NCBI GenBank assembly: GCA_024137785.1
Contig: JAHRHZ010000018.1
Span: 37,935,770 to 37,999,769 of the forward strand
Length of the DNA stretch: 64,000 nucleotides
Direction: 5' to 3'
Source: Ginglymostoma cirratum
Lineage: Eukaryota
The notes beneath the pieces were generated by a model. The model saw nothing but the letters and a program-made list of their open reading frames with translations, made no database searches and was not told the DNA's origin. Position numbers and translations under genes: made by a program. Positions 35,571 to 48,343 of this stretch are shown here, piece after piece (within the stretch, counting starts at the first letter, position 1; each line of letters starts with the position of its first letter).

Positions 35571-38500
35571 GTGAAATGCTGTTCGTCAAGGAAAATACAC
35601 AAAGCAATTATAGAAACAAGGCTGTTTGGAGAGGACCGAGCTGCAGAGCAACCCCTTAGTGACTAGGCAAATGAGTGAACAAACCGAAAAGAACATCAGC
35701 TGCCAATATTCAATGGTCAAACAATATGCACTTGTTCAATTTGGAGGTTAAACCAACAAAAGATGCTCATTTTTAAAAACAAAAATACTTTTTGAAATGC
35801 ATTTCTTCATCATTAAGTATAACAGTTATATTATAATGATGGTTATAAGAACATTTATAATCAATAGCAGTAAATTATCATCACTCCACTAATACAGCTA
35901 TTCATCAGCTCCAACAAAAAAATGAAAACTGTAACTACTATTGTGTTGCTGCAGAATAATTCACAATCTGCATTAAAATTTAACAAGCAAGATTAAGACG
36001 CAAAAAAAATTCACAACACAAAAAGGGTATTATTATAAAGTTAAAAATTAAACATCTTGACTCAGCAAAGAACATTGTATGCCTAGAACCCTTACACAGA
36101 GGTCACTGGGCAGATCTAGAGATATCTGACCTGCATAAGGGTACTGAACCAAGATGTATCAAGGGCTCATTTTCTGACAGTCAAAAAGTCCCCAGGGGAC
36201 AGGTGATCAATAAATTCTTTCTTACAATGATAAAGAATCCTATTTATCTGCAAATATTATTACCCTTCAGCTCTGTAGACAAAAGCTTCCTAAAATAGTT
36301 CCCAAGAGAAAGTTTAATGGGAGGCTAAGCGTAACAACCTAGAAATTCCAATTTTCATTTTCCTTGGCACTCTTGTGTTTTGTGCGTTAGTATGATTTTG
36401 GCACATCTGTGCTGCAGATCGCCGACCATTTCCTTCATAAATTAATGGCTTTATAATTCAGCAGAAATGAAGATGCATGTAGAGAAAATCAATCTGGGTC
36501 TCGGATAGACAATTAAAGGGTCCTTTCCAGAAGTTATTCCAAAGGGTGATTTATTTTTCAAAAAGACCAAGTTTAAAAGCCAAAATGCCGTTAACTTCCA
36601 AAGCTACACAAGTTATTAAGAAAGGATCTACAAATTTATTTCAAAGGTGAAACCATTGTAAAATGAGATCTTATCAAAGTGAACAAACTCGTTAGCAACT
36701 CGATCAAGCTGGTCCTTTGTGTTTCCGAAGCTTAATGATGGTAGAGTTGATAACTCATGATTGACATGCTTCTTGTACCAAGAGGGAAAGAGTTGAAAAA
36801 CCTTCTGTGACCTCCATTAGACTGCTAGGGAAGACTAAAAGAGCATTACACTCTCCACTGCCATCTGTCATAATGCATAAGTGAAATAACAACAGCAAAT
36901 GAAAAGGAAGTGCAGCAAGCTGTTCTTTAGTGGTCCATGAAGTGCAGAGTATTAAAGCAATCAATGCCTGCTTGCATTGTTGGGTATAACAAAAATTCTG
37001 AAAACAAACAAGTCCCTCAAAAGGTTTAAAGATGTTTTAACTAAAAGTCACAAAGCGGAAATGTATATGTGGAAAACTGTTGACCTGAAGGGATTTCACC
37101 TTTTGGAGATTTTGAGCCATATCACGACTTGAAGTTATATTCAAGAATATTTTATCTTATAAATGTGTTTGTCAATGCCAGCTCAATTTCATAAAATTTA
37201 AAATCAACTTGTAGTCTCTGCATTTTTCAGTCTGTTTGACTGAAGCAAAATCACAGGAAGAAATGAGATTAAGGTACAACCGAATTGACTATTAGTTTGT
37301 AAGTGTAGAAATGCTAAACACTATTTTTAAATTTTGCCATTAGCTTGGAGATGCAGTGGAAAGTTGATTTCAACATATTGCGTTCATTCAAATGGAAGAT
37401 TCAGGCCAAAACCGTTATGGAACATTTTAACTTTTAACAGACGATGATCATATTTTTAACAGACATTTAGAATACAGAGGAATAAATTAATTGCTTACAA
37501 ATAGTCTCATTTGCAAAAGCATCAAGAATTCATTTATTTATAATATGTTATGCTTTTACTTTTACCCCCTACCTTGGAAGGATTTTAAAGGTATGGTCAA
37601 GGATTTCCACCCATACTTGGTCAACTCACTAGGCTGCACAAAAATCTGAATAAAATCCTTCTGCAATCTGTTCAAAACTGGTAAACTTGCCATATTCTGC
37701 TACTCCAGTGATTGGAAGGGCACAATCTCTGATGTTCTGGTTGCGAGTCCAACATCTAATATTGGTATCAGGTTACTCAAGTCATTTGTTTAAAAGAAAA
37801 AAAAAATCAAATAAAGTGCAACCGAAAAACACAAAACATTAACTGGTAACACAGAGGCTCCAAAAACCTCTACTGGTGGAAAATCACTTCAGGATCATTA
37901 ACACTCAAATGATTATTTCAGATTTGCCAAAATAGTAAAAATCCCATAAGATCATGAGTTACACAAAACAATCTTACAGGCTTGCATCTGTTCTGCCAGA
38001 GGCACTTTGGCAAACAAGATTATATTGTATTTATCGTATTGAAAACCTCTCAAAGATGCAAATAGAGATATTAACAAAGACAATGTTCAGCAAAACACTA
38101 CTTTTATTCTAAACAAAACTGCAAATTTCAGTAAATGGACCACAAAATAAAGTGCTAAGCATTTCATAAAATTCAGAACAATCATCTTAAAAAAATATTC
38201 AAAATGGAACATTGTTACTTATAAAATAACAAAATTTAAAAAAGTACCAAGCACCTGTAAATCATACAGTATACTTTAATAAATGCGTTGCTGTCCATCA
38301 AGTAAGCCACTGTTTATTGGCACAAGATGACACACTTTACAATAACATTATGCTTCATGTGTTGAACGGAACACTTAATATAGAGGTTATTATAAACAAA
38401 ACTGTTCATGATTTCATGTTTAAAGAATGAAATTTGAAGATATTCATTTTGAAATTTTGACTAAGAAAAACAGTATTACTAAGTTCAGACTTGACTTCGC

Positions 38501-41035
38501 TTCTTTGTAAATAAACGCGCAATTACTCCAGTTCTTCCCTGCTGCACACTCACTGTTCTTGGGACAAAAAAAAAAACTGGCAAAGCCAGTTTTTACTGCC
38601 TGTTCACGTTTCACTTAGGAGATAATTTATATTTAAGCTGTATCAAATATTTGAGGTAAGTAAATTTTCTTTACTTAGAAATAGAAAATTCATGCAAATA
38701 ATTTGCATCATTTTGGTATAGTGAATACCCATGGTGATTAATTTGCCAGTGAATAAATATCTCAATGTTACAGTTAGATATTATAAAGGATATTTATGAA
38801 CTAATTTTGTACAAGTCAAGATAAAATTGGCAAATTGCATATTCTATTATAGCTATATCTCAAATTATAAGATGTCATTTGAGGCTTCATAACACTCATT
38901 TTAAGTTGCTCTGCAGAGACCGAAGTGACTTCCACTCTGAAGGTTTGTGTAAAGTATATAACAGTTTGGGTGCAATTTTCCGTCCTGAGAACCTGAACAC
39001 AGCAAGGAAGGGCAGACAATCAGACAGGTTGACATCAGGGTGATACCCTCCTCCTTCCAGCAATCTGGGTGGGAAGGCCAAGACTTGACTTTTCTGATCC
39101 ATTGTCAATGAAGACCTTTAATCAATGAAGGCTTAAGAGCCACCTGGAAGACAATTATTTTGGATCCATGTGGGTCAAGAAACAGTCAAACCAACTAATA
39201 AACCAGTGCAGATAGGCTGTCAGTTTTGGATGCCCATGCATCCCATGATTCCCAAACCAAACCACTCCCTAAACAGCACTGACATGTATTGGTGATCCTC
39301 CATCTATACGGGGGGAGGGGGAGCAGAGGAGGGTATGGTAGTCTTGGCAGCAGCCATGAATTGTATCATGGCGTTGCCGTATTTTGGATGCTACCTTCCA
39401 AATGTCTAGCAAATCCAAGTGGTTGGGACTTCCATTCTGGCAGAATTACAGTCCGAGAGCAGGCTGATAGCAGTCAGTCAGCTGCCTGAAGATCCAGCAA
39501 ACTTTCTGACCATGGTAGGTTCAGGGTGCGCCCCAGGAACATTTTTTACTTAAGTCTGGAAATGGGAAAATCCTGGCTTATATTAAATTTGGTAAATCCA
39601 TTTCATCTTGATAGAGATGTACAAGTGGGATATTTATTGACAAGAACCAAAAAAAGTCAACAAATTAGGGATCTCCAGTATTTTGTATAAAGTTACCATT
39701 ATGATCAGTCTATAAAGAGCACACAAAATAAAAGTATACAGCACTTTGCCAAATTTCATAAATGACAAAACAACAATGGTACCAAAAGTAGGAGCCACAA
39801 GAATAACCAAATGAATCACTCTAAATAATTCAGAAAGACATTTCACAGTCTTGATGGTTTCTCACTTTGATAAGAATAATGGCAGAGGCAAAAGAATTCC
39901 TGGTTCTGCAAACTCAAACTGTAAAAATTACCACACTTCCAATTTTCAGTTTGGAGGAGAGACTGGTAGTTAGGCCAGATGCAGGAGTGGTCTGGGTGGA
40001 AAGTCCACCTCAGGGCTCCAACACTGTGGTCAATGTTTAAAAATAAAGACAAAAACAAATGATCTTTCTCATTTACTCCCCTCACCCCACACACTCCTCA
40101 TGCCCCATCAGCCCCTCTCTCTACCTATTCCCATGGTCCTTCACACCTTCATGTTCATGTTCATTCATCTTATTCCCTTGAAGCCCTTATTAAAAATAGC
40201 TATTGCATTCAAGTGTTTAGTCTTTTTGTAAACAAATATTTCTATTCTATAAGCAGTTAGAGCTTCCACCAAAATGCTCACTAGACATAGGGAGCTCATT
40301 GTGCAAAAGATAGTTTGGGAAATCAATTATGCAGTACAAAATCTATGATGGCTTAAGTCGACAGGCACTCTGAATACATACCACTTTTTTAAAATCCACA
40401 CATTTGTTTGGAAAGTTCCTTGACACCTTTGGCAGTTTCACTGAGTTGATGTATTTAAACACAGGAGTATGCCTTTTCACAGCCTTACTCCCTCAACAAG
40501 GACAGGAGAGATGTTGAGTTCAGGGTGATATTTGTGATTTCCAACTTTTTTTGGCATTGTTTCCACAGCAGAGAAGCTCTACATCCTTGCAAAAATCAGG
40601 GCATATACTGGAGGTAGGCAAGTTCATTTCAATTCTTCCCTCACCCTCAGGTGAATCCAGCAGTCAATATTTTAACACAACGTGCAGTGAATGCACTGCA
40701 TTTAATATGTGGGTGGATCATGATCAATTTTCAAGTTGTTGCAAAAATTCATGTCTGAAAGCCCCCAGCAGCACTGTTATATTAATTCAGGCAAAGGACA
40801 GCTAGGTTCTACTTTTTAGTGGAAAGTCATATCTCTATGAAGTGATGGCTGTCACAACTGCATTATAACTTCTGAGCAAGGGTCAACCCTGATGGAACAA
40901 CAGCAAGGGACATTGCATGATCAAAACAATCTGGGCAGTTTAAGAAAATCACATACCTATGGAACCCCTGTGTGCAAAGAAGGTGGACAATTTTCCACCG
41001 CCAAACCTGCATTGTCCAATCCTAATTTTATGCTA

Positions 41036-47392: not shown

Positions 47393-48343
47393 TAATTTTA
47401 ATCTATATAATTTTTCGTATCAATGACATCATACTTTTCTCAGATGCTGCCAAAATTTGCCTGACATACAAGAGGCAAGTGTAATTATCACGGAGAGAAA
47501 TGGAAATATGGTTGTGCATCCTCCAAATTACCTAAATAGGCCGATCATCTCCAAATTCCTGCAACACGTAAATTCAATATACTAATGAGAAAGGGTAATT
47601 TAAAAAAAAACAATAAATCACACTCAAAATTCACGATACGTAGTTTATCAGCTACCTGTGAAATATGGAACTGGCTATTAAATCAAAATATCAGTGTGTC
47701 GTTAAGCAAAAACAAATGCTGTGGCATATTACTGACTCCTGTCAACAAATCTTTGTAAGAACAAAAATAGAAGCTCTATTACTTTGTCCAAGTGATACGA
47801 TAAAGAAAAAATGAAAACCTATACAGAGAACTGGCATTTTGACAGAAGGAGATTTGCAGCAGATAATCCAGCACGATTTTAACATCAGAAATAAAAATGC
47901 TGCCGAAAAGAAATAGTATACTCATTTACCTAAAATATAGGGGGAAAAAAAAGCAACTAAATCTTGTGAAAGAAGTTCAGTTTAGCTGAGACCACTCTGA
48001 TTGTGCTCGCAAGCTTTTAAAATCATTTGCTTTGTATATACAAGAACAAAAGATTTCTGTGTACAGCTGAACAGAGGTTAATCATGCATAGCAGGCAGCT
48101 GCACTGAACTTGTGGAACATTGGAGGGTGGGGGGGCTGCACTTGTTGCATCTTCAACATATTTGGGTTATGCCAAACCAGGTAATGATGGTATATAAAAT
48201 GCATGCCCCAGAAATGTGGACTCCTTTCCAAAAGTTCAAGTCATTGTTCTAACAGGATACCAAATACGCTAACTGAATGAAATTTGTACTCTAAGTGCAT
48301 ACACCTATAATGAAACACTAAGAAATCATCAGAAAAAGGATAT

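What the first reader, a model, noticed from the sequence alone, without database searches (positions are those of the whole stretch)
35571..48343. 12.8-kb U12 AT-AC intron separating PROX1's N-terminus from its DNA-binding domain
Seen: ATATCCTTT donor, TTTTCCTTGAC branch ~15 nt from a terminal AC, and an in-frame phase-0 join. Known: AT-AC U12 introns are rare, and Drosophila prospero has a U12 intron at the start of its homeodomain. Inference: an ancient minor intron is retained in a shark, it is long for its class, and GT-AG gene predictors will likely mis-annotate it.
Basis: partly seen in the sequence, partly recalled or inferred. Interest (0 to 1): 0.7.

Follow-up and report, generated by a model that had tools for sequence, protein, structure and literature searches.

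The report
Ancient minor-spliceosome intron in shark PROX1
A shark's PROX1 gene carries, just before its DNA-binding domain, the same rare AT-AC intron already described in human, mouse, fish and fly, and assembled sequencing contigs join its two ends exactly, likely through the minor spliceosome; it is ordinary, although in the sister gene PROX2 the same intron has likely switched type.

Summary
Real, and already known. The minus-strand intron 48343..35571 (12,773 nt) has an ATATCCTTT donor, a TTTTCCTTGAC branch box 15 nt from a terminal AC, and a phase-0 join between PROX1 exon 2 and the first homeodomain exon. Contigs from 2 of 4 runs (two studies) join 48344 to 35570 exactly. The intron is the orthologue of the documented U12 intron 2 of vertebrate Prox genes and fly prospero; the scan noted it before in another genome. 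It is long against human minor introns (8 of 189 sampled are longer), but ordinary for this gene, whose last intron is about 98 kb. Mis-annotation is real but a minority: 76 of 120 homologues have the correct join. Two side results: one contig splices exon 1 to an AG 8 nt upstream of the AC, skipping exon 2; and this genome's PROX2 has a GT donor at the same intron, with related carpet-shark and batoid models lacking two residues, which suggests an AT-AC to GT-AG switch by a 6-nt acceptor slide (untested with RNA).

The parts
35571..48343 (-). PROX1 intron 2, U12-type, AT-AC, phase 0, 12,773 nt
   Evidence: junction 48344|35570 in contigs of X1 and X3
48335..48343 (-). U12-type 5' splice site ATATCCTTT
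   Evidence: pairs with the 5' end of this genome's U11 match, 8 bp, -6.9 kcal/mol; same first nine intron bases as human and mouse PROX1
35585..35595 (-). U12-type branch box TTTTCCTTGAC, presumed branch A at 35586
   Evidence: pairs with this genome's U12 match, 10 bp, -9.4 kcal/mol; same 11 letters as the human and mouse PROX2 branch sequence. Branch nucleotide inferred.
35571..35572 (-). AC 3' splice site, 15 nt after the presumed branch A
   Evidence: loose ends at 35570 in X1 and X3
35579..35580 (-). Alternative AG acceptor 8 nt upstream of the AC, joined to exon 1 in one contig (exon 2 skipped)
   Evidence: X1 loose end at 35578 equals window 55003-55032; one contig, 1 of 4 runs
48344..50123 (-). 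PROX1 exon 2 (1,780 nt; start codon at 50056; 571 codons)
   Evidence: homologue search; tree. 5' border inferred from the AG at 50124-50125
35463..35570 (-). PROX1 exon 3 (36 codons), start of the homeo-prospero domain
   Evidence: Pfam PF05044; PDB 2lmd, 1xpx, 1mij; X3 contig covers 35463-35570 exactly
25850..26044 (-). PROX1 exon 4 (65 codons); the last exon lies about 72 kb outside the window at G000:C18:37863473-37863643
   Evidence: 571+36+65+61 = 733 aa, the length of shark PROX1a models such as P0244
55003..55032 (-). 3' end of the non-coding exon 1, followed by a GTAAGT major-type donor at 55002 (5' start of the exon not determined)
38785..38793 (-). Decoy ATATCCTTT inside the intron; no use seen
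   Evidence: no joint or loose end there

Best explanation
This is intron 2 of a carpet-shark PROX1 gene, cut out at AT-AC ends to join the N-terminal exon in frame to the first homeodomain exon, likely by the minor (U12) spliceosome, and it is likely the inherited copy of the intron already described in vertebrate Prox genes and fly prospero. Shown: the sites, the frame, the joined form in contigs, U11 and U12 genes in the genome with complementary segments. Inferred from established U12 biology: U11 pairs with ATATCCTTT, U12 with the branch box, the AC 15 nt downstream is chosen by distance and by matching the 5' A. If the intron is not removed, the frame reads ISFF and stops, giving a PROX1 without DNA-binding domain or a decay target, so slow minor splicing would act as a throttle on full-length PROX1 (inferred, not measured). 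Unlike the fly gene there is no room for a nested in-frame major intron.
For: Sites and phase. Junction 48344|35570 in contigs of X1 and X3, two studies, all laid records 99% or more alike. Only two intron-containing Prox loci among 6 matches in the genome, so a retrocopy is not the source (lower bound). U12 (144.8 bits) and U11 (113.7 bits) genes present. 76 of 120 homologues have YSG-xx-[IM]Q-EG; of 13 rows that come only from assembled runs, 7 have this join, 5 read into the donor (ISF), 1 ends earlier, 0 have another join. Human and mouse PROX1 donors GCA|ATATCCTTT (PMC6717393 supplement 1); prospero/PROX1 listed as conserved AT-AC U12 (PMC2831892 Table 2); PMC2956630 passage.
Against: The runs are only guessed to be RNA and are contigs, so no read counts or splicing efficiency; 2 of 4 runs did not cover exon 3. 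The donor side was seen only through 30-letter overhangs. One contig uses the AG at -8 from the exon 1 donor, so the acceptor region is not used exclusively by the minor pathway. 44 of 120 homologue rows differ from the join (18 with two extra residues, 9 read-through, 14 other joins, 3 without anchor), and 4 of 25 cartilaginous-fish rows have two extra residues; whether these are real alternative acceptors or model errors was not resolved. U4atac and U6atac were not searched. Which spliceosome acts was not tested.
Confidence: 0.96

Rival explanations
1. The motifs are chance and the real intron is GT-AG with nearby sites.
For: Window-wide motif counts are only modestly above shuffles; some database models use other joins, e.g. 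6 of 120 with YSG-KGLSPN.
Against: Exact AT-AC junction in two studies; no GT[AG]AG donor in 48200-48500; read-through of the donor stops after 4 codons.
Confidence: 0.01
2. The intron has AT-AC ends but is removed by the major spliceosome, as in some sodium-channel introns.
For: Major-type AT-AC introns exist (PMC2831892, PMC1557818 passages); a major-type splice reaches an AG 8 nt from the AC.
Against: Those introns have G at +5; here +5 is C in a full RTATCCTTT, with a U12 branch box at minor-type distance.
Confidence: 0.01
3. The locus is a regulated twintron-like switch: a major-type splice from the exon 1 donor to the AG at -8 competes with the minor splice and removes exon 2, turning PROX1 off or leaving a domain-only product.
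For: One X1 contig joins 55003 (GTAAGT donor) to 35578; the branch box doubles as a pyrimidine tract; exon 2 is 1,780 nt; the fly gene is a regulated twintron (PMC3584512, PMC3564746 passages).
Against: One contig in 1 of 4 runs; no open in-frame ATG among the 6 ATGs in 55003-55700, and a stop 5 codons before the exon end in the exon 3 frame; skipping around minor introns is a known low-level event (PMC6717393). This adds to the best explanation rather than replacing it.
Confidence: 0.08

Closest known systems
U12-type AT-AC intron 2 of vertebrate Prox genes (human PROX1 chr1:213998261-214005164, mouse Prox1, human and mouse PROX2; zebrafish prox1b)
   Same: Same position at the start of the homeobox, same ATATCCTTT donor, same kind of branch box, same protein join.
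   Different: 12,773 nt against 6,904 (human) and 6,998 (mouse); branch box CCTTGAC against CCTTAAC in human and mouse PROX1; join NT|IQ against SA|MQ.
Drosophila prospero intron 2 twintron
   Same: AT-AC U12 intron listed as orthologous to human PROX1 (PMC2831892 Table 2); exon 3 aligns to the start of the Prospero structures 1xpx and 1mij.
   Different: The fly has a nested GT-AG intron adding 29 residues (PMC3564746); here the frame stops 4 codons into the intron, so that arrangement is absent.
AT-AC to GT-AG subtype switches of U12 introns (36 clusters with both subtypes; Syntaxin-6 in fish; PMC2831892)
   Same: The PROX2 paralogue in this genome keeps the U12 donor and branch box but begins GT.
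   Different: The old AC is still there; the switch would come from one donor change plus use of an in-frame AG 6 nt downstream, losing two codons. I found no report of this for Prox genes in searches.

Membership tests
U12-type (minor) intron, AT-AC subtype | 5' splice site RTATCCTTT | tested here: met
   ATATCCTTT at 48343-48335
U12-type (minor) intron, AT-AC subtype | Conserved branch box complementary to U12 snRNA | tested here: met
   TTTTCCTTGAC; 10-bp duplex with the genome's U12 match
U12-type (minor) intron, AT-AC subtype | Short branch-to-acceptor distance (optimum 11-13 nt, PMC3584512) | tested here: met
   15 nt, slightly above the optimum; branch nucleotide inferred
U12-type (minor) intron, AT-AC subtype | Excised at AT and AC | tested here: met
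   Junction 48344|35570 in contigs of 2 of 4 runs
U12-type (minor) intron, AT-AC subtype | Minor spliceosome encoded in the genome | tested here: met
   U12 and U11 over their cut-offs; U4atac and U6atac not searched
U12-type (minor) intron, AT-AC subtype | Removal depends on U11/U12/U6atac | not testable with these tools
   needs knock-down or blocking oligonucleotides
Prox/prospero intron 2 orthologous cluster | Host gene is a PROX1 orthologue | tested here: met
   Falls in a 13-row PROX1 clade with support 100 in a quick tree (careful search unfinished); 567 of 571 identical to Stegostoma PROX1a
Prox/prospero intron 2 orthologous cluster | Intron lies at the start of the homeodomain, same position and phase | tested here: met
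   human position compared through the protein join and the published donor context, not a genomic alignment
Prospero-type twintron (nested U2 intron inside the U12 intron) | Nested GT-AG pair giving an in-frame longer protein | tested here: not met
   Frame reads ISFF then two stops; no GT before the stop
U2-type AT-AC intron | G at +5, no U12 branch box | tested here: not met
   +5 is C and the U12 box is present

The most novel reading that the evidence does not exclude
The Prox intron of cartilaginous fishes records a one-step route from AT-AC to GT-AG. In PROX2 a single A-to-G change at the first intron base moved the acceptor from the AC (11 nt after the branch A) to the in-frame AG 6 nt downstream (17 nt), dropping two residues just outside the folded domain; this happened independently in carpet sharks and in batoids. 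PROX1 stayed AT-AC because its equivalent AG lies 21 nt from the branch point. This would bypass the poorly spliced hybrid intermediate that is thought to make such switches rare, and break the stated rule that all vertebrate Prox genes have AT-AC here. If instead PROX2 still uses the AC, it is a natural GT-AC intron, a pair absent from the human catalogue.
Probability: 0.55. Interest if true: 0.45.

Novelty: already known. Interest (0 to 1): 0.2.

Why it matters
The finding itself adds one expected data point, a confirmed shark copy of a textbook minor intron, and a practical warning, since a minority of database models mis-join it. The by-product matters more: two paralogous introns in one genome, one AT-AC and one starting GT with both acceptors still present, would make the old question of how U12 introns change subtype testable with one minigene pair.

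Tried and rejected
Rfam scan of the window at gathering scores: 0 matches. Tandem repeats in 25000-57000: 2 short arrays, both outside the intron. Blast of the intron against the rest of the window and 11 fetched loci: 779 of 12,773 nt (6%) repeat-like, a lower bound from a small database, so the extra length is not explained. X1 loose end at 38619: 21 of its 30 letters searched with up to 2 mismatches, not found in the window or 15 loci, unexplained. Contig cover across the intron (X1 27 of 30 bins) may be pre-mRNA or DNA; the one listed contig at the intron-exon 3 border has only 22 letters in the exon, so retention is not claimed. No RNA holder is on record (kinds are guesses). Search for short assembled fragments across the PROX2 junction: 1 hit among 6 candidates, an eel protein, uninformative. 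Mouse Prox1 alternative-site rows in PMC6717393 supplement 6 read exactly 1 for both ends, as for several other introns there; I take them as probable alignment artefacts and did not use them. PMC350559 is not held. Careful tree search did not finish; the quick tree does not group bony-fish and cartilaginous-fish PROX2 cleanly (long-branch warning), so the name PROX2 for the paralogue rests on database names.
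Full report
Observation. The minus strand holds a PROX1 gene. Exon 2 ends at 48344 and exon 3 begins at 35570; between them lie 12,773 nt that start ATATCCTTTTTCTG and end TTTTCCTTGACGAACAGCATTTCAC. The coding part of exon 2 is 571 codons from the ATG at 50056, so the intron is phase 0 and the join reads [14 protein letters not shown]. Exon 3 (36 codons) is the start of the homeo-prospero domain (Pfam PF05044 positions 1-33, E 1.4e-15; PDB 2lmd, 1xpx, 1mij). Exon 4 is at 26044-25850 and the last exon lies outside the window; the four coding parts sum to 733 aa. The exon 2 product is 567 of 571 identical to Stegostoma PROX1a and sits in the PROX1 clade of a quick 34-row tree, so the genome (4.36 Gb) is a carpet shark or close relative.

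Chance. The motifs alone are weak evidence: the donor 9-mer occurs 5 times in the window against 1.59 expected, the branch box with AC 4 times at 3 sites against 0.82, and a decoy donor lies in the intron at 38793. The case rests on position and on the joined form.

Joined form. Four runs of four studies, of the 22 listed, were laid on 35000-41000. X1 and X3 each have a contig that leaves the stretch at 35570 with 30 letters identical to window 48344-48373; the X3 contig covers 35463-35570 exactly. X2 and X16 do not cover exon 3. The runs are only guessed to be RNA, but a 12.8-kb precise skip needs a spliced template, and the genome search shows only two Prox loci, both with introns (6 matches, a lower bound).

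Homologues. Of 120 best hits (690 found), 76 have the join YSG-xx-[IM]Q-EG, 18 have two extra residues, 9 read into the donor (ISF), 14 have other joins and 3 lack the anchor. Among 25 cartilaginous-fish rows (6 hits plus 19 cluster members; only 15 of 60 members of the largest cluster were listed), 21 have the join and 4 have two extra residues. Of 13 rows known only from assembled runs, 7 have the join, 5 read through, 1 ends earlier. So predictors do trip on this intron, but most models are right.

Mechanism. The genome encodes U12 (144.8 bits) and U11 (113.7 bits). Their segments pair with the branch box (10 bp) and donor (8 bp); the decoy donor pairs almost as well, so this shows compatibility, not use. 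The AC is 15 nt after the presumed branch A, near the 11-13 nt optimum given in PMC3584512. Removal by the minor spliceosome is inferred from these defining signals. Unspliced RNA would read ISFF and stop, losing the DNA-binding domain; PMC6717393 names PROX1 among the few genes on which the rate-limiting model of minor introns was built. The early stop excludes the fly's nested in-frame major intron, which adds 29 residues (PMC3564746).

Known status. PMC2831892 Table 2 lists prospero/PROX1 as a conserved AT-AC U12 intron. PMC6717393 supplements give human and mouse PROX1 and PROX2 donors with ATATCCTTT and lengths 6,904, 6,998, 4,015 and 4,386 nt. [quoted passage not shown] The scan noted the orthologous intron in another genome (e1-9955067); I had reached this reading before seeing it. 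No paper on the shark copy turned up in searches.

Length. In one of nine parts of the supplement (189 of 770 human minor introns) the median is 1,059 nt and 8 are longer than 12,773, up to 522,707. So it is long by human standards, about 1.85 times human PROX1, but this gene's major introns are 4,879, 9,418 and about 98,000 nt and the paralogous intron is 19.8 kb. No shark-wide distribution was available.

Side result 1. One X1 contig leaves at 35578 and continues at 55003, the end of the non-coding exon 1, which is followed by GTAAGT. This is a GT-AG splice to the AG 8 nt upstream of the AC that skips exon 2. No open in-frame ATG precedes it in 55003-55700. One contig in one run: most likely a low-level by-product, possibly an off-switch.

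Side result 2. The second Prox locus (C133; named PROX2 in most database matches) has GTATCCTTT at the aligned position (TPFKSVN against SPYSGNT), the branch box TTTCCTTAAC, the old AC 11 nt and an in-frame AG 17 nt after the branch A; in PROX1 the same AG is at 21 nt. GT-AC does not occur in the human table of PMC13602164 and hybrid pairs are called disfavoured in PMC3584512. Of 29 cartilaginous-fish rows (two further Callorhinchus rows left out), 11 from 9 species of carpet sharks, skates, stingrays and an electric ray lack IQ, as use of the AG predicts; 4 read into a GT donor (whale shark, 3 skate-cluster contigs); 3 read into an AT donor (Heterodontus, Heptranchias, Pristiophorus); 9 keep xQ; 2 are other. 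In the quick tree the carpet sharks are nested among AT or IQ species, which implies separate switches in carpet sharks and batoids. Against: Pristis and both Mobula rows keep xQ inside the batoids, the Hemiscyllium model has VQ, gene models favour GT-AG and may not reflect reads, and a search for assembled fragments across this junction found none. The lost residues lie before the stretch that aligns to the fly structures, so the loss is likely tolerated.

Papers seen. Passages only: PMC2831892, PMC3584512, PMC1557818, PMC13602164, PMC2956630, PMC7730772 (47, nothing used), PMC3564746. PMC6717393: passages, supplement searches, file 8 part 6 of 9 (29), file 6 part 2 of 7 (63). PMC350559 not held (57). 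Subscription papers on mouse Prox1 and zebrafish prox2 were seen only as references in PMC2956630; they and unread supplements of PMC2831892 may list Prox subtype switches that I could not see.

Verdict. Observation confirmed; interpretation right in kind but overstated in surprise. Already known; interest 0.2. The PROX2 switch is the lead worth following (probability 0.55, interest 0.45 if true).

Noticed in passing
G000:C133:68526332-68546145 (L008:133; L007 end; L013): The paralogue (database name PROX2) has GTATCCTTT at the same intron, a TTTCCTTAAC branch box, an AC 11 nt and an in-frame AG 17 nt after the branch A; intron 19,808 nt to the AC with 400 N. Of 29 cartilaginous-fish rows: 11 lack IQ, 4 read into a GT donor (VSF), 9 keep xQ, 3 read into an AT donor (ISF), 2 other.
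   Followed up: partly
window 55003 joined to 35578 (minus strand): One X1 contig splices exon 1 (GTAAGT donor) to an AG 8 nt upstream of the U12 acceptor, skipping exon 2 with the start codon.
   Followed up: partly
G000:C18:37863643-37961619: The last PROX1 intron is about 98 kb, roughly eight times the U12 intron.
   Followed up: no
L003, last-exon acceptor: Tandem CAGCAG acceptor; it may explain the 733 and 734 aa isoform pairs in shark models. Not checked residue by residue.
   Followed up: no
P0001-P0120 and P0252: 18 of 120 PROX1 models (frogs, some sharks and rays, two teleosts, a caecilian) have two extra residues before MQ/IQ; could be a real AG acceptor 6 nt upstream or a recurrent model error.
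   Followed up: no
window 38619: X1 loose end of 30 letters not found in the window or fetched loci.
   Followed up: partly
window 2578-3000 (+) and 34552-34917 (-): Open frames that look like decayed CR1/LINE reverse-transcriptase ends (label recalled, not tested).
   Followed up: no
window 17372-17771, 22441-22450, 62862-63261: Runs of N; the two 400-nt runs are flanked by the same repeat-like sequence.
   Followed up: no
L018 (G000:C23:38631198-38631332): The single U11 match begins TAAAAGGGTTTCTG, differing at two places from the consensus as I recall it; variant or pseudogene not resolved.
   Followed up: no
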